Positions 23,770 through 64,000 of a stretch of DNA of 64,000 bases are shown one piece after another. The position numbers were made by a program, and so were the translations under genes. Each line of letters begins with the position of its first letter. Position 1 is the stretch's first letter. Source of the DNA: a virus (taxonomy: Duplodnaviria; Caudoviricetes); the IMG/VR virus record IMGVR_UViG_3300021399_003927, positions 1 through 64,000 of that record. The stretch is one strand, 5' to 3'. The notes below the pieces were generated by a model. It did no database searches and had not been told where the DNA came from. It saw only the letters and a program-made list of their open reading frames with translations.

Positions 23770-24456
23770 TTATTCCAATTTCTTCCACATATCCTCTGGA
23801 TATGAACTATGCAGCTTATTCAACCACCACTTTGTCTTCGTCTTACACATTGGCAGTCTCTGACCACTCATAAGCGTTGACCTCTTAATTACCACACCTT
23901 CCTTAATATTAGGATATTGACAGCCCTCTTCCGTCCAATCATTGTTGTTGATGGAGTTGATGAAGTCCATGTTAAGTTTGCCAATGTATATCACCTCTGG
24001 AGTTTCAATCCTATCATCCTCACAGAAGATGTCAATGAATGTGTTAGGCTCAATATAGCCCTTTTTCTTCAAAAACACGTCAATCAATGCAAGGTGCATT
24101 TCATCACCCTCTTGGTGGAATCCACAAAAGCTGTGTTCACCGTACCATTCAAAGAACAGTGTAATTTCTTCAATGCCGTTGAAGATGCCTTTCTTTCTAG
24201 AGTTATTAACAATGATTTCCCTCAAAACATTTTCATAGTTCTTTTTAAAGAACCTTACAGCATCACCAAACCCCTCTGTGTTTTCATCCACTAGAGTTTG
24301 ACGAGAGCCAAACAATGTAAACTGTTGCTTAGTTGCACCCTTGGGAGTATATTTCACCCTAAAATTTTGGCCATCAAGCTTGTTGAACGCCACTACTTGT
24401 TCACCATGTAGTGTTTTGTCATCCCTAAAATTTGGTATGCTTAGGTATTCTTTCAT
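23770..24456 (-). CDS. ATP-dependent RNA-ligase-like nucleotidyltransferase
   Basis: Motif I KLDGQN, FFEWYG, LIDVF, EGVVIK, KTKT. Confidence 0.8.
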   Translation of the reverse strand: MKEYLSIPNFRDDKTLHGEQVVAFNKLDGQNFRVKYTPKGATKQQFTLFGSRQTLVDENTEGFGDAVRFFKKNYENVLREIIVNNSRKKGIFNGIEEITLFFEWYGEHSFCGFHQEGDEMHLALIDVFLKKKGYIEPNTFIDIFCEDDRIETPEVIYIGKLNMDFINSINNNDWTEEGCQYPNIKEGVVIKRSTLMSGQRLPMCKTKTKWWLNKLHSSYPEDMWKKLE

Positions 24457-26336
24457 AAATCCCAACAACTTTTTTTATGTAATACTTTAAGCTTTTGAAG
24501 CCAATATGTTTCTATACGCTGTTTTTTATAACGATTAAAACAATTCCTTATAAGTTCAAATTGATTTTCGCCTATTTGCCATGTCGTTCCAATCGTGCAA
24601 GAATAGTACATTTTATCACCAGTTTTAATATAAGGCTTCAATTCAATATGAAACAATGGATTAGGAGCATGACTAATTAGAGTTAAATATAATTCTTTGG
24701 CTTTTTCTTCTATCACAAACTCAAACTCTTCAAAATGAGTTTCCATTTCGTTGTCTATGCATGTTTTGTTAGCTCCGTCATCTATAAGATAGTTACTGTC
24801 TTCGCAGTAATATACCCTACCAACATGAAAATTACCAGAAGAAGAATATATTTGCCTAGGAATTTGTTTATAACAATAATCGCAATCGCCCAAATAGCCA
24901 CCAAACATTTTTTGAGTGCCATATTCATAGCTTATGGTATAATAGAACACATTTTGGTCAAATGGCAGTTCCTTTGTTAACATGTAATACTTACCTTTTT
25001 CTATCATAGAAATATTGTCCTTTAATTGCTTTCAATAGTTTACAGTCTCTTAACACAGCTATTTTGATTTCTCTGAGTAAAATCTTAGCAGCATCAGTTA
25101 GTTCATTGCGACTTATGTCAATGTAAACACATCCATCAGTGGTCATAACTGTGCACCCAATTTTAAATTTCACTTTGCCATTTTTTCTATTTATATGGTC
25201 TGGTTTTATGTCCAAGTGCCTAACACATTTAAGTTTATAAATTGGTTTAAACATCTTGTCATCAAAAGCCACATCTACTTCTTTAAAATAATTCTCATCC
25301 TTTTCTGAAAGCTTATAATACAAGCCATAGTCATTTCTCAAGCAACCACATGTTACTGGACCGTATATCTTATCTTTAGTAAAGTAGAAATAACTGTCCT
25401 CAGTATGGAACTCACGGCCTTCAAAGTATATTGTGCTTCTTCTCCTAATTCTATTGTTTCCAAATGCAGATGCAATGAAATCATTCACCTCTTCTGTAGT
25501 TGGCTTACCCATACATACGTAATATTTCCCATCTTCAAACATATCTTAATAAAATATTTCTTCGTCTTGTACAAAATATGCTGTCTTTTTTTCTACGTCA
25601 ATTTTCAGATATTTTGAAATGTAATGTCTACCTTCTTTAATAGATGCTACCAATGAATCATATTCATAACCACCACTTTTAGATGGTAAATATAGTTTAT
25701 CCCTTTTATTTGGATACATTACCCAAATAAAATAGGCAAAATATTCATACATGCTTATACCACTAAAAGCTTTGTTTAAATTCAGTTTTCGAAACTGAGT
25801 GGTAATATAACCAGTGAAACATGTTTCACCAAATATATCTATTGGGTTTTCAAAATCTGGAACAAATATCTCACCTCTTATATCTTTATGAAAATATAGG
25901 TATTTATTCCAATATGGCAGTAGTCTAGTAAGTTTCAAAAACTTATATGCCATTTTAAGGTTATCTTTGTTCTTAATCAGCATTTTGTATATTCCAATTT
26001 TATTGTTTTCTTATCCTTATCTATTACACAAAGCCTATCATCATTGAAATAGTTATTTGTGAAAACAATACTAGCTCCATACTCTTCTTGGTAAAACACA
26101 AACAACCATTTTTGAAAGGCGAAGTATAAACTTACTTTGAAATTTATATTCTTTTCATGTATAAACCAAAAGGTTATTGATGAACAACCAAAATCATCAA
26201 TAATATTTGAAGAATCAAATGGAATTGTTCGATATTTAGTATTTCTTTGATACTCCAAAAATTCATAATAGAATCCTATTTGTTTAAAGAATCTGCATAG
26301 TAGTTTATATCCGTATGAAAATGTTTTAGCAGCCAT
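24453..26336 (-). other. Four hypothetical genes forming two probable paralogue pairs (24453-25007/24991-25542; 25546-25983/25977-26336)
   Basis: Shared GKYY...Y.....L..D.G in the first pair; Y.F(L/F)K...FG....T in the second. Confidence 0.6.
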
Positions 26337-28390: not shown

Positions 28391-29665
28391 CTATGCTGCT
28401 TTTTCGATTAGCTTTTTCAGCTCCTCGTAATACTGAGGCAACTGAGACATGAACCTACGCACAACGTTCTCCTTGCCAGTGTGCTTTCCAACGTCTTGTG
28501 ACAGCTTACAAGTGTCGTTATAGAACGGCCATTTTTCATTCTCCTTGATGGCAACCAACTTGATTACGATGTTAAGAGGCTCTACAGTGTCTGCAATGCC
28601 ACTCCAATCGTTTGTAAAGTGTGTTCCGATGCCATAGCTAGGCAAACACACATTCTTGGCCACATTCTGAATTTGAATGGCAGAGTCAACGCTTAATGCA
28701 TTACTGAAAATGACTTGCTTACTCTTTGGGTCGATGTTGAATTCCCTGTACATCTGTACAATCTTGCCCAACTCCTTATAGTTGTCACCACTGTCAATTC
28801 TCATGCCCTTATACTGATTTGCATAAGCCTCTGTGATGTTCAGACGGAAGATGTCAAAGCCATAGGAATCGTAGAGGTAAACACCAAGTGCGCCCTTGTA
28901 CGCCTTATTCCATGCTTCCATAGCAAGCTTGTTGGCGTTAGTTGGGCCTCCGTAGAGTCCTGCAATTCCGCACACAAACTCATGCGCCATAGTTCCGATG
29001 GGCACAAGGTCATACTTCATGGCAAGGTATGGGTTGCTAGTACCAACGAACTTACCTCCAGTAAGAGCAGCCCAATTTCGTGAGTTATAGCAGTCCTTAA
29101 ATGCCCTTACAGCAACCTCTTGGGTTTCAAACGAACTACGTCTGCGTGTGCCAAAGTCAGAGAAGACACATCCTGCTTCAAGAAGACGCTGTGCTTTCTG
29201 ATATGACTTCTTATAATATGCTTCATAGTCAAAAGCTATGTTCTGATTGGTCATAATATAGAATAGCTCTGAAATGATTGCAAGAACCTTCACCTCAAGC
29301 AGAATGGTTTCGTACCAAGGGCCTTCAAATTTCACATGGAGCAATCCGTTAGCGTCTTGATATGCCGTTACATATTTCGCATTGTAGCGGAATCCACGAA
29401 GGAAATTATAGAACCATGAAGGAATGAAATAGCAACGTTTCTTAAGGAACTCTATTTCCTCTTCTGTAATCACTATGCCTTCAAGCATTTTAATCTGACG
29501 GTTTAACTCGTCAGCAAAACCTTTAGGATAGACGCGCTTGGCACGGTCTACGAATTCATACATTACCCAAGCAGTTGGGAAATTGACGATAACTGCAAGA
29601 CACATTGTAAGCTTGTACAAGTCATCGTCAAGAAAATGGTTAATAATTCTTTTAATGTTGTTCAT
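28391..29665 (-). CDS. pncB: Nicotinate phosphoribosyltransferase
   Basis: LDDDLYKLTM, DFGTRRR, GTSN, GTMAHE, RIDSGD, GIGT, VIKL, KLS. Confidence 0.95.
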   Translation of the reverse strand: MNNIKRIINHFLDDDLYKLTMCLAVIVNFPTAWVMYEFVDRAKRVYPKGFADELNRQIKMLEGIVITEEEIEFLKKRCYFIPSWFYNFLRGFRYNAKYVTAYQDANGLLHVKFEGPWYETILLEVKVLAIISELFYIMTNQNIAFDYEAYYKKSYQKAQRLLEAGCVFSDFGTRRRSSFETQEVAVRAFKDCYNSRNWAALTGGKFVGTSNPYLAMKYDLVPIGTMAHEFVCGIAGLYGGPTNANKLAMEAWNKAYKGALGVYLYDSYGFDIFRLNITEAYANQYKGMRIDSGDNYKELGKIVQMYREFNIDPKSKQVIFSNALSVDSAIQIQNVAKNVCLPSYGIGTHFTNDWSGIADTVEPLNIVIKLVAIKENEKWPFYNDTCKLSQDVGKHTGKENVVRRFMSQLPQYYEELKKLIEKAA

Positions 29666-31068: not shown

Positions 31069-32016
31069 TTACTTTGCCTCAACGTTGGTATAATACCAAT
31101 TTTCGAACTCTGCAAATTCCTCGTCAGAAAACTCTTTCCTTACACGGTCAAATTCGATGTAATCGCAATACTTAACCTTTACGATTACCCTATTACCATT
31201 GCCACTGCAAAGAGGAATAATTGGACGTGCCACAATACCCTCTTCAATCATGGTTGGGTCAGCAGCCTTATCGTACTGAGTCGTAAAACCACTACGAACT
31301 TTGCGCTCAATTTCCTCAAGTGTCATTACGCCTAGGAATGGAACAGTCTCAAGTCCAAGACCCTTACAGAGAGAGTCACGAACATCCTTTGGAGTCCACC
31401 AACCTTGCTGCTGAATGTCAAACACCAAGAACCCATTGCCATTCTGAATATAACGAGAGCCACACTTCTGAATACCAGTGCCGAAATACTCGCCATAGAT
31501 ATAGATGGGAACTTCCTCAAGCTCCACACCATACAATCCCTCTGAGGTGATAGTGTCTTTCTTATCGAATTTTGCTTCCAATTTTGCCACTTTGGTTTGT
31601 TCGTCATAAGTATCAAAGGAAGCGTGTACATCATAGAACTGAACCTTGTTGGTGTCCTTGTTCTTTACAGGGACAAACCTAGCAGTCTCTTTTGGGAACA
31701 TGGCCTTTAACTGAGGCTTGATACGCTCACCAATGGCTTGCAGCATTTCAAACTGACCGTGCATAGAATCAGCCTTATCCGTTTTACCACCAACACGAAT
31801 CTCACTAGTTGATGGGAAGTATGCAATCTTGGAGTTAGTGCCGTCAATTTTGGAATATGCCTCCCAAGGACAATTGAACAAATACTTAGCCTCTACATTG
31901 GAGAAGTTACCAATGATGATTTTGTTCTTGAACTTAAGCCAATCCTTGTTAGGACACTCCTTGCCATCGAAAATGTACCTTTTATATAGGGTATCTATTT
32001 TAGTATATGTATTCAT
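31069..32016 (-). CDS. Rnl2-like RNA ligase
   Basis: KIDGTN, IYGEYFG, FLVFDI, EEGIVAR, VKVK. Confidence 0.85.
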   Translation of the reverse strand: MNTYTKIDTLYKRYIFDGKECPNKDWLKFKNKIIIGNFSNVEAKYLFNCPWEAYSKIDGTNSKIAYFPSTSEIRVGGKTDKADSMHGQFEMLQAIGERIKPQLKAMFPKETARFVPVKNKDTNKVQFYDVHASFDTYDEQTKVAKLEAKFDKKDTITSEGLYGVELEEVPIYIYGEYFGTGIQKCGSRYIQNGNGFLVFDIQQQGWWTPKDVRDSLCKGLGLETVPFLGVMTLEEIERKVRSGFTTQYDKAADPTMIEEGIVARPIIPLCSGNGNRVIVKVKYCDYIEFDRVRKEFSDEEFAEFENWYYTNVEAK

Positions 32017-33666: not shown

Positions 33667-35076
33667 TCAAGTTGTTAGACTCTTAATTTTATTCTCTACG
33701 ACCTCAAAGCATTCATCTTTCGTAATGTTTGGGTTTTCGAAATAGGCATCTTTGACTGCCTCAAGCAGAACTCCAATTATCGGCCCACCTTTTAATTTAA
33801 ATTCTGCCATAATGTCTTTTCCATTTATAGGCAGTTTGATGTTGGCCATCTTATCAATGTCCTCAAGCTCTTCTATTCTGTTAAGAAGGTCGTACACTTG
33901 TCGTTTTTTCTTGCCGTATGTGGAATGTAGGTTATTGGCGTTCATTAGGTCAACCACTGTTCCGATGTCGTTTCCGCATAGATTCATGAACTTTCTGATT
34001 TTCTTATCTGGAGGTACTACACCATCCGCATAGATTTTGAAAATCCTATGATATTCTATAGCAGTTTGTACACTTTTAATGATGTAGTTTGGAAACTTCA
34101 TCATCTTCAAGTCTGTTGCTGCCACTTCTGCACTAAACTTGTCAGGACTAACTGTTCTCATTCTATCAGTAACAATCTTACCAACGTCATGGAATAACGC
34201 TGCCAATCTGCTTTCAAGGTATGGCTGCGTTTCGTCCAACACATTCATTGTATGGTCAAATGTTGTCACCATTGGGTTTTTAGACTCATACGCAAAGTTA
34301 GTGTCGTATATATCTGGCATTACCTTGTTCAGCACGCCACAGTAATACATTTTCCTTATGCCAACGCTAGGTTTGCTGCATGACAGAATTTTTGAAATTT
34401 CATCACTGATTCGTTCTTGTGATACGATTTCCAACCTATTTACGTTTTTAATCATACCAAGCCATGTGTCCTTATCAATACCCCATCCTAGACGAGTTGA
34501 GAAACGAATGACACGCAATATGCGCAATGGGTCATCGTTAAAAATGATGTCTGGGTCACTTGGTGTTCTAATGACTTGGTTGCACAAGTCATCCAAACCT
34601 TTTTTGTTGAAATCAAAAATCTGTTCTGTGCTGATGTTGTAGTAAAGAGCATTAATTGTCAAATCCCTTCTTGCAGCATCTTCTTCAATTGTTCCAAACG
34701 CAGTATCAGGATTTCTGCTCTCTTTTCTATATTGCTCCTTACGAGTCTGCACACATTCTATTTCAATGTCCTTTAGGTCTTCATCCTTGTACAATTGGAA
34801 CTTGGCTGTACCATAGTTCTCAAATACCACTGGGTTTGTATTGGCCGCATAGCACTGATTACGGATGGCCATAAAGTTAGCAAACAGTATCCCACCGTTG
34901 TGGATTTCTACAACAATATCAATGTCTTTGACTTTTTGTCCTAACAGCAAATCCCTTATACATCCACCAACGTAATACACCTTTCCTTCAAAATGCGTAC
35001 CTTTGATACATTGCTGAATAAGGTTTGTTAACTTTATTATTCTCTCGTCAGCATTCTTAAATAATACTTCGTTCAT
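33667..35076 (-). CDS. cca: tRNA nucleotidyltransferase (CCA-adding/poly(A) polymerase family) with HD domain
   Basis: VGGCIRDLLLG...KDIDI, EDAARRDLTINA, DDPLRILR.IRF, LFHDVGK. Confidence 0.9.
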   Translation of the reverse strand: MNEVLFKNADERIIKLTNLIQQCIKGTHFEGKVYYVGGCIRDLLLGQKVKDIDIVVEIHNGGILFANFMAIRNQCYAANTNPVVFENYGTAKFQLYKDEDLKDIEIECVQTRKEQYRKESRNPDTAFGTIEEDAARRDLTINALYYNISTEQIFDFNKKGLDDLCNQVIRTPSDPDIIFNDDPLRILRVIRFSTRLGWGIDKDTWLGMIKNVNRLEIVSQERISDEISKILSCSKPSVGIRKMYYCGVLNKVMPDIYDTNFAYESKNPMVTTFDHTMNVLDETQPYLESRLAALFHDVGKIVTDRMRTVSPDKFSAEVAATDLKMMKFPNYIIKSVQTAIEYHRIFKIYADGVVPPDKKIRKFMNLCGNDIGTVVDLMNANNLHSTYGKKKRQVYDLLNRIEELEDIDKMANIKLPINGKDIMAEFKLKGGPIIGVLLEAVKDAYFENPNITKDECFEVVENKIKSLTT

Positions 35077-35309
35077 TGGTAAGTATTTACAAATTCTTCT
35101 ATAACTTTCTGAATCCATTTTCTATTCATGTCCGCCCAATACCGAAAACCTTCATTAGTTTTGTTCCAAGGAATTGAGGCCACTGTAAAAAATGGCTTAT
35201 TAGGGGCTTGTCCAAACTTTCTTAAATAATAACAGTATTTCACGTAACACCCATTCTCTTTTAAGAACTTTGAAAGTTTGGGGCTAATCTGTTTTTCGCT
35301 TTCCATCAA
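35073..35309 (-). CDS. Small hypothetical protein
   Basis: FLK...WNKT.EG..YW pattern; coupled ORF. Confidence 0.6.
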   Translation of the reverse strand: MMESEKQISPKLSKFLKENGCYVKYCYYLRKFGQAPNKPFFTVASIPWNKTNEGFRYWADMNRKWIQKVIEEFVNTYQ

Positions 35310-55313: not shown

Positions 55314-55375
55314 TCAGTGGCGTTGGACTCGAACCAACCATGCTCTAGAATCATCGCACCAAAAATTTACCACTG
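55314..55375 (-). ncRNA. 62-nt D-armless tRNA-like RNA with a possible TT-CTA-GA loop
   Basis: CAGTGGT/GCCACTG acceptor, GTTGG-TTCGAGT-CCAAC T arm, A73 then CAA. Confidence 0.6.
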
Positions 55376-60164: not shown

Positions 60165-60861
60165 TGGGCCTAGAGGGGCTTGAACCCACGACCTTCAGAT
60201 TCATGCTACACTATGTTACCATAGTCAAACAAAGCTTGTAAAACCATTACGACTGCTCTTGGGTCAGCACTTTACGCATCTTACGCTATTTCAGAAGCCT
60301 TCTGAGATTTTACAAATTGCTTTCTATACCCCTCTGTACCTTAGAGTCGTTGACCAGTATAGAAACTTTGTTTGTTGTAGTCTGGAATACATCTTTACCA
60401 TATTGAAATTCTTGCAAGATTATGTTAGGGCTGAAACCTTTTGAGGTAAGACGTATCTATCTCATATATAGCAGTTTCTACACTCTGCTTTAACATAAAT
60501 TTCAACTTAGGTATCTCCTATATACTCTCTACACATTTATGAATGTAGCATACTTAATCATTAACTTTTCTGAAGCGTATTTTCATTCTCATTAGAGATT
60601 TTTTCGCCTCTACATTCAATTTAGCACGGTATAATCCTTACACATTATTGGTTAGTGTTGTGTTAGTTCGCCTCAAGGTAGCACGGATAAATCCGTGTCG
60701 TTCTTCAGGCTACCACTCGTAGGTTTAATGACTAACTCCATTAAAAGGACTTCCACCGTTTTAGGGAGATTCTACATAGGGATTTCTCGCCTATGCACAC
60801 AATTGTGAAACGCTTTTCACATCTATGAGTCTGCTGCTCTAACCAACTGAGCTATAGGCCC
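60165..60861 (-). tRNA. tRNA-Ile2(CAT) interrupted by a group I intron; exons 60825-60861 and 60165-60201
   Basis: Joined exons give GGGCCTA-TA-GCTC-AGTTGGTTA-GAGC-A-GCAGA-CTCAT^AA-TCTGA-AGGTC-GTGGG-TTCAAGC-CCCTC-TAGGCCC-A. Confidence 0.92.
60202..60824 (-). mobile_element. Group I intron (IC3/Azoarcus-like), 623 nt, no homing endonuclease ORF
   Basis: 5' exon ends in U, intron ends in G; IGS GTG; P3 ATCTCC/GGAGAT; P7 GAGTATA/TGTATTC; CCTAAG...TATGG receptor in P8; GAAA loop on P2. Confidence 0.9.
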
Positions 60862-62329: not shown

Positions 62330-62678
62330 TGAAATAAACGTTTTTGTCAATATTAAGTTCTCTAAACACGTCCATGATTTTTTTGTTGATGTCTTGTTTC
62401 TGCTTTTTCAGTTTGGTTATGATGTTCTTTAAAGCTTCTTCCTTGTTAAGGAAATATACATCATCTACAGATGATTTTTTCAAATCATAAATAATGAAAT
62501 GGCAACTATCACCCCACCAATCATGCGTTTGCCTACCTAGCTTATCCATGAAAAGGCAAAGTAATCGTCCTTGGCCTTCATCAATAGGCTTAATTCTTTT
62601 GGTTTCAACCTTATTTCCTTTTATCACGTATACTGGATAAATCTCTCCAATAGTTAAATCTTTAAATGTAAGTGTCAT
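62322..62678 (-). CDS. Hypothetical protein
   Basis: LTFKDL start shared with 22089..22379; FLNKEEA motif. Confidence 0.6.
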   Translation of the reverse strand: MTLTFKDLTIGEIYPVYVIKGNKVETKRIKPIDEGQGRLLCLFMDKLGRQTHDWWGDSCHFIIYDLKKSSVDDVYFLNKEEALKNIITKLKKQKQDINKKIMDVFRELNIDKNVYFNE

Positions 62679-62896
62679 TTCATATACTTTTTATTAAATT
62701 TTTTGCAAATATATGAAAAAAAATTGAGAAAGACAACCATCTTCCTCAACTTTAACAATCTTTAATTTTACATTTGTTCTGTGCTCTGTTTATCTTGTTG
62801 TAAAAGTTAATCCTTTTCAACTTATCAGTAGACTTATTGGCTGTAGCCAAATAAGAATTCTTAGCTTTTTTCTTTTTATTTAAACTAGTCATATTG

Positions 62897-63076
62897 GGAG
62901 TCTGGAGGGAATCGAACCCACATTATGTTTAAACCGACACACTAAATGCGCTTCCCTACTTGTGTTTCACCACGTTTTCGGTGCATCCGCAAAAATACAA
63001 GACCTTAATTCAGATTCTCTATCGGTAATAGCCACTGCATTTGCTACCGCATTGTCCATTTTATGCTACAGACTCC
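62897..63076 (-). ncRNA. 180-nt tRNA-like RNA: His-type 8-bp acceptor, 10-nt anticodon loop, ~100-nt variable-arm domain
   Basis: GGAGTCTG/CAGACTCC, GCAT/ATGC D stem, GTAGC/GCTAT, ACCGATA/TGTCGGT, GTGGG-TTCGATT-CCCTC. Confidence 0.75.
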
Positions 63077-63085
63077 ATATATTAA

Positions 63086-63565
63086 TTACACATTGTAATC
63101 CGTGAATCTTACTTCTGATTTGTTATATATTTTTGAACTTGATTTATTATATTCATCCTCGTTAACAATTCTACCAAGTAAAGCAAAATATAAAGGATGG
63201 CAAGTAAATTCAGAACCATTGTCATCGAATTTTATTGTAACTTCTTCTGACCACATCTGGTTTCTGTTAATCTCCACTAAATGTTTCTCGTTTGAACATA
63301 CAAGACTGAAACGGCCTCTAGATACTATCTCCCCTAATCTATAGTGTTTGTTGACAAAACACTCTCGATATATCATTGGATTTGTCATATTACTGTTGTA
63401 ATACTTGGTGTCCATTACAAACACTCTGTCTCCAATATTGAAGAAACATTTATATGGAGTTCCATATTTTTCATACGAATTGTGGGAAGGCCATAATACC
63501 ACCATTCCGTCAACTCTTCCTACTTCACAAGTTTCAACCCTTATGAATTTTTTTTGTTTGTTCAT
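63086..63565 (-). CDS. Hypothetical protein (SH3-like FNIGDRV)
   Basis: 159-aa ORF. Confidence 0.6.
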   Translation of the reverse strand: MNKQKKFIRVETCEVGRVDGMVVLWPSHNSYEKYGTPYKCFFNIGDRVFVMDTKYYNSNMTNPMIYRECFVNKHYRLGEIVSRGRFSLVCSNEKHLVEINRNQMWSEEVTIKFDDNGSEFTCHPLYFALLGRIVNEDEYNKSSSKIYNKSEVRFTDYNV

Positions 63566-63593
63566 TTTGTTTGTTTCTTTTTTTTAGTATTAA

Positions 63594-63752
63594 AAATAGG
63601 TTTGCTTGTACCAACCTTAAAGGTATCCTCTTATCCATCAAGGAACTAGGGCAAGGGGTCAATCCTCGCACAGCATTACTGCTTGCCTACCATTTCTTAC
63701 GTGGTTTGCGCTTGTCTAACTATTTCAGCACCCAATATGGGTGCGCCAAGCC
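63594..63752 (-). ncRNA. GC-rich multi-hairpin RNA downstream of a tRNA
   Basis: GCACCCA/TGGGTGC, ACCA/TGGT, AGCA-GTAA-TGCT, GCGAGG/CCTTGC, TACC/GGTA; possible GCTTG/CAAGC closure. Confidence 0.45.
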
Positions 63753-63756
63753 GTAG

Positions 63757-63832
63757 TTGGGAATTCTGGGCTCGAACCAAAACATCCTAGTGAATCAGAC
63801 TAGGCGCATTAACCATTTTTTGCTAATCCCCA
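63757..63832 (-). tRNA. Atypical tRNA, nominally Ile(GAT), with a Gln-like acceptor and 6-bp anticodon stem
   Basis: TGGGGAT/ATTCCCA, CCTAGT-CTGATTC-ACTAGG, TTTGG-TTCGAGC-CCAGA. Confidence 0.7.
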
Positions 63833-63924
63833 ATGGGGCAGACAACCTTATTACTACCATCCTCACATTTAGTCACCCCCCAAACATGAGTTTTATGTCA
63901 ATCTGACAAAGGAAAATGGATGCG

Positions 63925-64000
63925 TGAGCGTAGTGGGATTCGAACCCACGTAGCTTATTGCCATAATAGTTTTAGAGACTATCCTAATAGACCACTCTAG
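63925..64000 (-). tRNA. Amber suppressor tRNA (anticodon CTA), long variable arm; 5' end beyond the window
   Basis: CTAG/TTAG D stem, ATAGT-CTCTAAA-ACTAT, TGGC-AATAA-GCTA variable arm, GTGGG-TTCGAAT-CCCAC, A73. Confidence 0.88.

What the first reader, a model, noticed from the sequence alone, without database searches (positions are those of the whole stretch)
62897..63076. 180-nt tRNA scaffold with a His-type G-1:C73 acceptor carrying a ~100-nt cargo domain
Seen: an 8-bp acceptor, normal D and T arms, a 5-bp anticodon stem with a 10-nt loop (AAATGCAGTG), and a variable arm closed by ACCGATA/TGTCGGT containing nested TGCG/CGCA and CACC/GGTG helices. No group I/II core is visible, and I found no simple excision restoring a canonical tRNA. 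Known: G-1:C73 is the main HisRS determinant. Inference: a possibly aminoacylated ncRNA of a new class, or a protein-spliced tRNA needing the phage ligases.
Basis: partly seen in the sequence, partly recalled or inferred. Interest (0 to 1): 0.8.

Follow-up and report, generated by a model that had tools for sequence, protein, structure and literature searches.

The report
tRNA-shaped phage RNA carrying conserved cargo
A rumen giant-phage fragment encodes a conserved 180-nt RNA that folds like a tRNA but has an oversized anticodon-type loop and a ~94-nt structured domain in place of the variable arm, so it looks like a new tRNA-like non-coding RNA, not a broken or ordinary tRNA.

Summary
The feature is real. 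On the minus strand (63076..62897) there is an 8-bp acceptor, a D arm, a T arm, a 6-bp stem with a 10-nt loop, and a 94-nt insert closed by a 7-bp helix. No tRNA finder or Rfam family recognises it.

I found 10 homologues: 8 in rumen metagenome contigs and 2 divergent ones in IMG/VR. On 10 full-length copies, 18 of 36 modelled pairs carry compensatory changes and 98.9% of cells stay paired. The elbow pair 19:56 is swapped once. A random insertion or pseudogene is therefore excluded.

The His-type G-1:C73 is present in 8 of 10 full-length copies. The two divergent copies have A73, one with G3:U70.

The large loop varies at three positions and is 12 nt in the divergent copies, so this is not a decoding tRNA. 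ARAGORN's ochre-suppressor-with-intron call is non-unique and TAA is the main stop codon.

Best reading: a tRNA-scaffolded, non-decoding structured RNA derived from a class II tRNA. Its function is unknown.

The parts
62897..63076 (-). Whole tRNA-like RNA gene (180 nt, RNA positions 1-180). C74 follows at 62896.
   Evidence: Direct reading. Own covariance model scores it 231 bits and finds it as a single copy in the 129-kb record. 10 homologues were found.
63069..63076 (-). Acceptor 5' strand, with G-1 at 63076.
   Evidence: Pairs with 62897-62904. 4 of 8 pairs have changes on both sides across 10 copies, and the first pair is G:C in 8 and U:A in 2.
62897..62904 (-). Acceptor 3' strand ending in C73 (62897).
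   Evidence: It is followed by C74 then a non-C base. In the same record 31 of 32 ARAGORN tRNAs also carry C74, and none of the 32 is followed by a C.
63049..63066 (-). D arm: 4-bp stem and a 10-nt loop containing GG.
   Evidence: 2 of 4 pairs are compensatory, with AU/UA/CG types. The loop base equivalent to G19 swaps with T-loop position 56 in L101.
63027..63048 (-). Hairpin A in the anticodon-arm position: 6-bp stem and 10-nt loop AAAUG-N-AG-N-N (loop 63033-63042).
   Evidence: 5 of 6 stem pairs are compensatory once L061 and L101 are included. The loop varies at RNA positions 40, 43 and 44 and is 12 nt in L061 and L101.
62933..63026 (-). Cargo domain (94 nt) in the variable-arm position, closed by P1 (63020-63026 with 62933-62939).
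   Evidence: P1 has 4 of 7 pairs compensatory and 100% of cells paired.
62999..63019 (-). P2 hairpin of the cargo, with conserved loop CUGAAAUAUGG-type.
   Evidence: By direct reading, the outer pair is G-U in the close clade and C:G in L061 and L101. The long-range alternative proposed by RNAalifold is broken in L061.
62947..62991 (-). P3 (62988-62991 with 62947-62950) and the inner rod, with invariant purine-rich internal loops.
   Evidence: Invariant in 10 of 10, so the pairing is inferred, not tested.
62962..62973 (-). P4 hairpin (3-4 bp, loop GUGAAA or GGAA).
   Evidence: All 3 pairs are compensatory. The same changes appear in rumen run contigs, and one DNA contig deletes these 12 nt.
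62957..62979 (-). Candidate bulged-G (sarcin-ricin/loop E type) module: GAA at 62977-62979 opposite AGUA at 62957-62960, flanking P4.
   Evidence: Both strands are invariant in 10 of 10. The motif consensus is recalled from memory, and no 3D test was possible.
62922..62932 (-). 11-nt linker UUAAACAUAAU between the cargo and the T arm.
   Evidence: Identical in 9 of 10 copies, with one U>G in L029. A related UAAACAUA follows the variable arm of a 91-nt tRNA-Tyr(GUA)-like gene in the L101 phage.
62905..62921 (-). T arm (GUGGG-UUCGAUU-CCCUC).
   Evidence: Direct reading. There is a 13-nt match to the tmRNA T-loop in Rfam. The U-U mismatch becomes U:A in L061 and C:G in L101.

Best explanation
This is a genuine, selected RNA gene: a tRNA-shaped scaffold with acceptor, D arm, T arm and an intact elbow.

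Its anticodon-arm position holds a short hairpin with a 10-12-nt purine-rich loop. Its variable-arm position holds a conserved ~94-nt three-way-junction domain.

It sits in the phage's tRNA array in the same orientation. Its 3' end has the same N73-C74 form as the phage's real tRNAs.

The inferred life cycle is as follows:
- It is cut out of the array transcript by the tRNA processing machinery: RNase P at the 5' end and 3' trimming.
- It is completed by the phage CCA-adding enzyme.
- It accumulates as a stable, non-decoding RNA.
- Its active part is the cargo, whose unpaired nucleotides are the most conserved part of the molecule.
- That cargo most likely forms a binding surface for a protein or another RNA.

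Its architecture points to descent from a class II (long variable arm, tyrosine-type) phage tRNA.

Shown: the gene, its fold, its conservation, its tRNA-like ends, and the loss of a normal anticodon loop. Inferred: processing, stability, lack of decoding, and cargo as effector. Unknown: the partner and the biological role. A role in the phage's tRNA-repair and translation-takeover toolkit is my guess.
For: Fold and selection:
- 18 of 36 pairs are compensatory, 98.9% of cells are paired, and 0 of 500 shuffles reach this. The close clade alone gives 6 compensatory pairs.
- The elbow pair is G:C in 9 copies and C:G in 1.
- Independent compensatory changes, and a clean 12-nt deletion of hairpin P4, appear in rumen run contigs.

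Not a decoding tRNA:
- The loop is 10 nt, or 12 nt in L061 and L101.
- It has 3 variable positions, two of them with three states each, among copies that are 95% identical.
- It is not called by ARAGORN default or by Rfam tRNA even at E<=10.

tRNA-type handling:
- The own model aligns ordinary tRNAs end to end with the cargo deleted.
- The 3' end is C73-C74-A, like the phage's real tRNAs: 31 of 32 carry C74 and none of the 32 is followed by a C.
- In L031 the conserved trailer RNA that elsewhere follows real tRNAs starts right after this element.
- A CCA-adding enzyme is encoded at 33667-35118.

Cargo as the functional part:
- Long unpaired stretches are invariant in 10 of 10 copies while the helices change sequence.

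Origin:
- In the L101 phage, hairpin A has the same 5-bp stem as the anticodon stem of a 91-nt tRNA-Tyr(GUA)-like gene.
- That gene also has a variable arm followed by UAAACAUA.

Expression hint:
- A 251-nt contig from a size-fractionated metatranscriptome covers RNA positions 15-171 of a divergent copy with the cargo in place.
Against: - No direct evidence of transcription, ends, CCA addition or stability. The RNA-library contig could be DNA carry-over, and contigs cannot show ends.
- The acceptor stem and N73-C74 end are kept so carefully that aminoacylation, and hence some role at the ribosome or with a synthetase, cannot be dismissed.
- The phage carries three RNA ligases, which would fit a splicing route.
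- Only 11 copies from three clades are known, all from gut or rumen-type samples. Covariation events are therefore few, and P3 and the inner rod are untested.
- The alignment used for one search was fitted to the model structure, which favours that structure.
- No partner is identified. The cargo matches no known motif library entry.
Confidence: 0.58

Rival explanations
1. An intron-containing tRNA. The ~96-nt insert is removed, by an unknown endonuclease or by self-cleavage, and the halves are joined by phage RtcB or an Rnl-type ligase. The product would be a working tRNA, for example the ochre suppressor tRNA(UUA) that ARAGORN proposes.
For: - ARAGORN with introns calls tRNA(tta) with a 96-nt intron.
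- The best deletion constructs score 115.7, equal to the median of the 32 real tRNAs, 115.5.
- RtcB and two PF09414 ligases are encoded.
- In 6 of 7 full-length metagenome copies, and in the window, an amber-suppressor tRNA(CUA) lies upstream in the array, directly or one to three genes away.
Against: - 703 of 2552 arbitrary deletions are also called tRNA, with 58 different anticodon labels, so the call is not specific.
- The proposed anticodon stem has G-U pairs and a mismatch, and lacks position 26.
- The compensatory pair 51:144 supports the cargo-closing helix, and the U>C change at 144 breaks ARAGORN's variable arm.
- TAA ends 85 of 124 minus-strand ORFs of at least 100 aa, so an ochre suppressor would read through most phage genes.
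- No tRNA splicing endonuclease was found in the 129 kb held, and no known ribozyme or group I intron match.
- No joint across the cargo appeared in the 4 runs laid, and an RNA-library contig keeps the cargo.
Confidence: 0.12
2. A charged tRNA-like RNA that acts in translation itself. It would be aminoacylated (histidine in the close clade, other amino acids elsewhere). It would then enter the ribosome or a synthetase-dependent pathway, in the way tmRNA does, with the cargo providing the special function.
For: - The acceptor helix, N73-C74 end and elbow are all conserved.
- G-1:C73 is invariant in the 8 full-length close-clade copies. The phage's own tRNA-His(GUG) has the same G-1/C73.
- L101 has G3:U70 with A73. 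That this is the alanine determinant is recalled, not tested.
- The phage encodes a TyrRS and a bona fide tmRNA, which shows investment in this kind of biology.
Against: - Acceptor identity differs between the three clades, so no single amino acid can be essential.
- There is no conserved reading frame. The short AUG frame has an in-frame UAG in L027 and loses its stop in L028 (read).
- There is no tmRNA-like match beyond 13 nt of T-loop.
- A 94-nt variable arm would probably clash with the ribosome. This is inference.
Confidence: 0.12
3. A cis-acting processing or punctuation element of the tRNA-array transcript, with no trans function of its own. The tRNA-like fold would only recruit RNase P or 3' processing to release neighbouring RNAs or the downstream small ORF.
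For: - It always lies inside tRNA arrays in the same orientation.
- A conserved 46-aa basic ORF starts a few nt downstream in the window and in 2 of 8 loci.
Against: - An ordinary tRNA would serve this purpose. It does not explain 94 nt of cargo with invariant unpaired nucleotides across three clades.
- The neighbours differ from contig to contig.
Confidence: 0.1
4. A decayed tRNA pseudogene that suffered a random insertion.
For: Standard tRNA finders and Rfam do not recognise it. Single-sequence folding energy is unremarkable.
Against: - 10 homologues exist in different flanks.
- Every stem substitution in the close clade is compensated: 100% of 288 cells are paired.
- 18 compensatory pairs appear with the divergent copies included.
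- The unpaired cargo sequence is invariant.
Confidence: 0.02

Closest known systems
Class II tRNAs (long variable arm: bacterial Tyr, Leu, Ser), and non-canonical tRNAs such as allo-tRNAs (Mukai et al., PMC5389517; listing and abstract seen only)
   Same: - Cloverleaf order of arms, with the extra arm emerging between the anticodon arm and the T arm.
- U8/A14-type and 19:56 elbow contacts are possible.
- The N73-C74 end matches the phage's real tRNAs.
- A 91-nt tRNA-Tyr(GUA)-like gene in a related phage shares stem sequence and linker motif.
   Different: - The variable arm is 94 nt and branched, against about 10-25 nt (the latter recalled).
- An 11-nt conserved linker precedes the T stem.
- The loop is 10-12 nt with no conserved anticodon.
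- It is not scored as tRNA by Rfam or ARAGORN.
tmRNA (RF00023)
   Same: A tRNA-like acceptor/T-arm module joined to a large extra structured domain. It is encoded by the same phage (68405-68765). One member has G3:U70.
   Different: - The extra domain leaves from the variable-arm position, not in place of the anticodon arm.
- A real D stem is kept.
- There is no conserved tag ORF.
- Only a 13-nt T-loop match.
Y RNA-like YrlA (RF02553; Chen et al. 2014, PMC4201824, listing and abstract seen only)
   Same: A bacterial or phage non-coding RNA that uses a tRNA mimic as one module of a larger RNA. The same phage has sub-threshold YrlA-like hits and a Ro60-type protein.
   Different: - By recall, YrlA's 5' and 3' ends form the Ro-binding stem and the tRNA-like part is internal. 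Here the ends form the acceptor.
- No Rfam match on the element.
Engineered 'tRNA scaffold' for recombinant RNA expression (Ponchon and Dardel; recalled, not read)
   Same: The same design logic. A foreign structured RNA is embedded in a tRNA body so that the cell processes and stabilises it as a tRNA.
   Different: The engineered version is artificial and, by recall, inserts the cargo in the anticodon stem. This one is natural and uses the variable arm.
Intron-containing tRNAs (group I introns in bacterial tRNAs; bulge-helix-bulge introns in archaea)
   Same: A tRNA gene interrupted by about 100 nt.
   Different: - No group I match.
- No endonuclease found.
- The host is bacterial: the phage carries tmRNA, and there is a near-threshold Bacteroidetes FopS hit (49 bits, cut-off 56) in a relative.
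- The insert is more conserved than the scaffold.

Membership tests
tRNA (RF00005) | Score above the family threshold in a covariance model or tRNA finder | tested here: not met
   No RF00005 match at gathering or at E<=10. ARAGORN default makes no call.
tRNA (RF00005) | Acceptor, D and T arms with elbow contact | tested here: met
   Covariation in the acceptor and D stems, and a 19:56 swap. Ordinary tRNAs align to the own model with the cargo deleted.
tRNA (RF00005) | 7-nt anticodon loop with a conserved anticodon | tested here: not met
   The loop is 10 nt, or 12 nt in 2 of 10 copies. Positions 40, 43 and 44 vary among 95%-identical copies.
tRNA-His | G-1:C73 pair | tested here: inconclusive
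   Present in 8 of 10 full-length copies. The other 2 have U/A73. A divergent RNA-library contig also has A73.
tRNA-His | GUG anticodon | tested here: not met
   GUG occurs at loop positions 42-44 in 3 of 8 close copies. The others have GGG, GUC or GAG. A normal tRNA-His(GUG) exists at 86435-86507.
tRNA-His | Charging by HisRS | not testable with these tools
   Needs a biochemical assay.
Intron-containing tRNA | A unique excision that restores a canonical tRNA | tested here: not met
   703 of 2552 deletions are called tRNA with 58 anticodon labels. The best (tta) has a weak stem.
Intron-containing tRNA | Splicing machinery or a self-splicing core | tested here: inconclusive
   Ligases are present. 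No PF01974 endonuclease in the 129 kb, which is 44% of the genome. No group I or ribozyme match.
Intron-containing tRNA | Joined RNA product | tested here: inconclusive
   No joint over the cargo in 4 runs, but only contigs were laid.
tmRNA (RF00023) | tRNA-like domain plus tag ORF and pseudoknots | tested here: not met
   Only a 13-nt T-loop match at 7.7-10.9 bits. The short frame is not conserved.
YrlA (RF02553) | Covariance-model match and a Ro-binding terminal stem | tested here: not met
   No match on the element at E<=10.
Bulged-G (sarcin-ricin/loop E) module inside the cargo | AGUA opposite GAA between two helices (consensus recalled) | tested here: inconclusive
   Both strands are present and invariant in 10 of 10 copies. 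The motif geometry could not be tested.

The most novel reading that the evidence does not exclude
Phages have naturally invented the 'tRNA scaffold'. A class II (tyrosine-type) tRNA had its variable arm expanded into a conserved ~94-nt RNA device with a sarcin-ricin-like module.

The device would be made, trimmed, CCA-tailed and perhaps charged like a tRNA. It would act as an effector in the tRNA-centred conflict between giant phages and their hosts. Examples are a decoy or inhibitor for tRNA-cleaving defence nucleases, or a ribosome- or synthetase-directed factor.

Several other long tRNA-like genes in the same arrays (132-196 nt) would then be further cargo carriers.
Probability: 0.2. Interest if true: 0.85.

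Novelty: new variant of a known kind. Interest (0 to 1): 0.62.

Why it matters
tRNA mimics fused to extra domains (tmRNA, Y RNA-like RNAs) are among the most informative non-coding RNAs known. This family adds a different architecture: a nearly complete tRNA body whose variable arm carries a large, highly conserved junction domain.

It occurs in giant rumen-phage tRNA arrays. These arrays are packed with translation and RNA-repair functions: about 39 tRNAs, tmRNA, a GOLLD-like RNA, YrlA-like RNAs, a Ro60-type protein, RtcB, two Rnl-type ligases, a CCA-adding enzyme and TyrRS.

It gives a concrete, short, well-delimited RNA for testing three things:
- how phages exploit host tRNA processing to make other RNAs;
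- whether such RNAs are charged;
- what they bind.

It also shows that tRNA finders miss a sizeable share of tRNA-shaped genes in such phages. The record has 19 unassigned T-arm motifs, and one of them proved to be the tmRNA.

Tried and rejected
Searches that found no homologue:
- Exact-pattern scans of IMG/VR with the scaffold ends found nothing, because the D stem and acceptor vary. A P2 pattern and the 21-mer that worked in metagenomes also found nothing.
- Neighbour-protein searches in IMG/VR found no relatives.
- blastn of 62600-64000 against 50,697 phage records gave no match.
- BLAST and covariance-model searches of five huge phages (LR756502, LR745206, LR756501, LR756504, LR756508) and of Lak-A1 and Lak-B4 gave only ordinary tRNA-level hits of at most 28 bits.
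- The GTDB genome scan gave one chance hit in a Saccharibacteria MAG, 7.4 bits.
- In the two-block IMG/VR scan, 47 of 49 stretches were chance. 2 of 3 were chance.

Structural ideas dropped:
- A long-range helix (RNA 64-68 with 131-135) proposed by RNAalifold was dropped because L061 breaks it.
- A loop pseudoknot, AAAUG with CAUUU, was dropped because U38>A in L061 and L101 is not compensated.
- A coding reading of the AUG in the loop was dropped: L027 has an in-frame UAG and L028 loses the stop.
- Hammerhead, twister, K-turn and T-box specifier readings were checked by eye and did not fit.

Read laying:
- Parts of the laid stretch without cover in the RNA runs, and the absence of joints, are not evidence. 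Only contigs were laid.

Tools and sources not available:
- Supplementary tables of Fremin and Bhatt 2023 (PMC10690425; abstract and passages seen) list 10,006 candidate viral RNAs and could not be opened. The family might be among them.

Literature:
- Five full-text searches gave no description of such an RNA.

Full report
**What is at the coordinates**

The feature lies on the minus strand, 63076 down to 62897. It reads as follows:
- GGAGUCUG at the 5' end, pairing with CAGACUCC at the 3' end (8 bp);
- UA;
- a D arm, GCAU-AAAAUGGACA-AUGC;
- G;
- a hairpin, GUAGC-AAAUGCAGUG-GCUAU, which is 6 bp if two G-U pairs are counted;
- a 94-nt insert closed by ACCGAUA/UGUCGGU;
- the linker UUAAACAUAAU;
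- a T arm, GUGGG-UUCGAUU-CCCUC, with one U-U mismatch.

C74 follows at 62896. ARAGORN with default settings and Rfam both miss it. A permissive Rfam scan at E<=10 finds only 13 nt of T-loop. Folding energy alone is unremarkable, with z = -0.90. The case for the structure therefore rests on comparison with homologues.

**The setting**

The window is the first 64 kb of a 129,491-bp IMG/VR virus record, estimated 44% complete. Near-identical DNA is held mainly by bovine and sheep gut runs.

RNA genes in the record:
- 39 Rfam tRNA matches, all on the minus strand;
- a tmRNA at 68405-68765;
- a sub-threshold but full-length GOLLD-like RNA at 66528-66961, 73.7 bits, E 2e-17;
- two sub-threshold YrlA-like hits.

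Protein genes in the record:
- RtcB, a Ro60-type 'RNA-binding protein' family member and TyrRS;
- a CCA-adding enzyme and NAPRTase;
- two PF09414 RNA ligases inside the window.

Other properties of the record:
- None of the 32 ARAGORN tRNAs encodes CCA. 31 of 32 end N73-C74 and then a non-C base. The element does the same.
- The phage's real tRNA-His(GUG) at 86435-86507 also has G-1 and C73.
- Coding density falls to 43-64% between 60 and 90 kb.
- 19 T-arm motifs on the minus strand belong to no called tRNA. One of them proved to be the tmRNA.

**Homologues**

My first pattern scans failed because I chose the scaffold ends, which vary.

Laying contigs of four runs gave the first signs of relatives:
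- compensatory changes at 62962:62973 and 62963:62972;
- one DNA contig lacking exactly that 12-nt hairpin;
- a 251-nt contig from a size-fractionated metatranscriptome that covers most of a divergent copy with the cargo in place and a different acceptor 3' strand, ending A73-C74.

A 21-mer from the cargo then found 8 metagenome contigs, 7 with full copies and 1 cut. Degenerate cargo patterns found two divergent IMG/VR copies: L061 at 138 bits and L101 at 117 bits with model R1.

Nothing comparable was found in:
- 50,697 phage records by blastn;
- five huge phages and two Lak phages by BLAST or covariance model;
- one genome per GTDB species by pattern.

**Structure**

In the close clade there are 8 copies with 95% mean identity. 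Every substitution in a modelled stem is compensated: 6 pairs with double changes, 100% of 288 cells paired, and 0 of 500 shuffles reach this.

With L061 and L101 added, 18 of 36 pairs have double changes and 98.9% of cells are paired. Slid controls give 36-49%. This alignment was fitted to the model, which favours it. However, the same pairs are visible in the MAFFT alignment.

Support by helix:
- Covariation supports the acceptor (4 of 8 pairs), the D stem (2 of 4), hairpin A (5 of 6), the cargo-closing helix P1 (4 of 7) and hairpin P4 (3 of 3).
- P3 and the T stem are invariant or nearly so.
- The elbow pair 19:56 is G:C in 9 copies and C:G in L101. This argues for a true L-shaped fold.
- By reading, P2 is a local hairpin. 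Its outer pair is G-U in the close clade and C:G in the divergent copies.

That sequence overlaps the covarying P4 hairpin.

The most conserved parts of the molecule are unpaired stretches of the cargo and the 11-nt linker. Two of these, GAA and AGUA on either side of P4, match my recollection of the bulged-G (sarcin-ricin/loop E) consensus. That is a lead, not a test.

**Is it a tRNA?**

The scaffold is tRNA-like, but the anticodon position is not:
- The loop is 10 nt in the close clade, of the form AAAUG-N-AG-N-N. The N positions are the most variable unpaired sites in otherwise 95%-identical copies.
- The loop is 12 nt in L061 and L101.
- An orthologous decoding tRNA would keep its anticodon.
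- The GUG that suggested histidine is present in 3 of 8 close copies.
- G-1:C73 is invariant in the close clade. Both divergent copies have U and A73 there. L101 has G3:U70, and L061 has G1-U72.

Histidine identity is therefore a feature of one clade at most.

**Is it spliced?**

I tested how specific that call is:
- Of 2552 arbitrary single deletions, 703 are called tRNA, with 58 anticodon labels.
- The tta solutions are the best at 115.7. Real tRNAs score 101.7-124.1, with a median of 115.5.
- The proposed anticodon stem is weak.
- Its variable arm is broken by the U>C change that is compensated in P1.
- TAA ends 85 of 124 minus-strand ORFs of at least 100 aa, so an ochre suppressor is implausible.
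- No splicing endonuclease domain is present in the held 129 kb.
- No ribozyme or group I match exists.
- No joint was seen in the runs laid.

Splicing is not excluded, because ligases are plentiful, but nothing positive supports it.

**Origin and context**

In the L101 phage, a 91-nt gene that ARAGORN misses has a CUGUAAA loop (anticodon GUA) on the stem ACGGU/ACCGU. It also has a short variable arm, then UAAACAUA, then the T arm. The element in the same phage has the identical 5-bp stem and the linker UUAAACAUAAU. This points to descent from a class II, tyrosine-type tRNA through growth of the variable arm and remodelling of the anticodon loop.

Neighbours:
- In 6 of 7 full-length metagenome copies, and in the window, a tRNA(CUA) lies upstream in the array. 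It is 7-8 nt away in L028 and L031 and separated by RNA2 in four loci. In the window it is separated by tRNA-Ile, RNA2 and a 159-aa ORF.
- In L032 and L101 the element lies between tRNA-Gln(UUG) and tRNA-Gln(CUG).
- A second conserved structured RNA of about 160 nt (window 63595-63757, minus strand) often lies between tRNA(CUA) and the element.
- That RNA begins within 2 nt of a tRNA-type 3' end in the window, L027, L030 and L033. It begins directly after the element in L031. The element's 3' end is therefore used like a tRNA's.

**Verdict**

The best reading (confidence about 0.6) is a non-decoding, tRNA-scaffolded structured RNA. Its variable-arm cargo is the functional part, and its tRNA body secures processing, CCA addition and stability.

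Rivals:
- a spliced tRNA (about 0.12);
- a charged tRNA-like RNA acting in translation (about 0.12);
- a cis processing element (about 0.1);
- a pseudogene (about 0.02).

I found no description of such an RNA in Rfam 15 or in five full-text searches.

Noticed in passing
window 63595-63757, minus strand: A second conserved structured RNA of about 160 nt ('RNA2') with clear compensatory changes in two hairpins. It starts within 2 nt of a tRNA-type N73-C74 end in the window, L027, L030 and L033, and directly after the element in L031. It has no Rfam match. It is well covered by contigs of two RNA libraries. Its position resembles 3'-trailer ribozymes, but it is about three times longer than theta ribozymes by my recollection of their size.
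   Followed up: partly
window 63924-64000 (runs on to 64009 of the record), minus strand: An amber-suppressor tRNA(CUA), 86 nt with a long variable arm. Relatives carry 74-78-nt tRNA(CUA) genes upstream of the element. TAG ends only 12 of 124 minus-strand ORFs, and the phage encodes a TyrRS.
   Followed up: partly
record 66528-66961 (L009 2528-2961), minus strand; outside the window: A full-length but sub-threshold GOLLD-like RNA (73.7 bits, gathering 150, E 2e-17). A 124-nt tRNA-like gene with a ~54-65-nt insert follows immediately. The same pair occurs in relative L033.
   Followed up: partly
record 68405-68765, 82642-82770, 85453-85566, 102153-103505, 108888-110561, 107273-108547; outside the window: A phage-borne tmRNA, two YrlA-like hits below threshold, RtcB, a Ro60-type RNA-binding protein family member and TyrRS. 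Together these form an RNA-repair and translation toolkit.
   Followed up: no
window 55314-55375 and 60165-60331, minus strand; also 69170-69245, 76263-76335, 82718-82799, 85144-85275, 86701-86785, 86915-86997, 87085-87178, 91112-91307 of the record: 19 T-arm motifs are not covered by any called tRNA. One of them proved to be the tmRNA. Many have a matching 7-bp acceptor and A73 but odd or missing D or anticodon arms (62-96 nt) or large inserts (132-196 nt). One (87085-87178) has a GUA anticodon loop. One (76263-76335) has a G3:U70 acceptor and a weak tmRNA-type match.
   Followed up: partly
window 62752-62892, minus strand: A 46-aa lysine-rich ORF starts 4 nt after the element's C74. It is conserved at 67-71% identity in 2 of 8 related loci, in the same position.
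   Followed up: partly
whole record, all tRNA genes: 31 of 32 ARAGORN tRNAs encode N73-C74 followed by a non-C base, and none encodes CCA. A CCA-adding enzyme is encoded at window 33667-35118.
   Followed up: partly
window 23770-24468 and 31069-32016, minus strand: Two PF09414 (Rnl-type) RNA ligase genes. NAPRTase lies at 28391-29665.
   Followed up: no
window 63086-63565, minus strand: A 159-aa ORF without Pfam or IMG/VR relatives separates RNA2 from the element here. In four relatives the two RNAs are only about 6 nt apart, so the ORF looks like an insertion into the array.
   Followed up: no
L030 7092-7141: A near-threshold match to the Bacteroidetes FopS sRNA family (49 bits, gathering 56) in a related contig. 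This hints at a Bacteroidota host.
   Followed up: no
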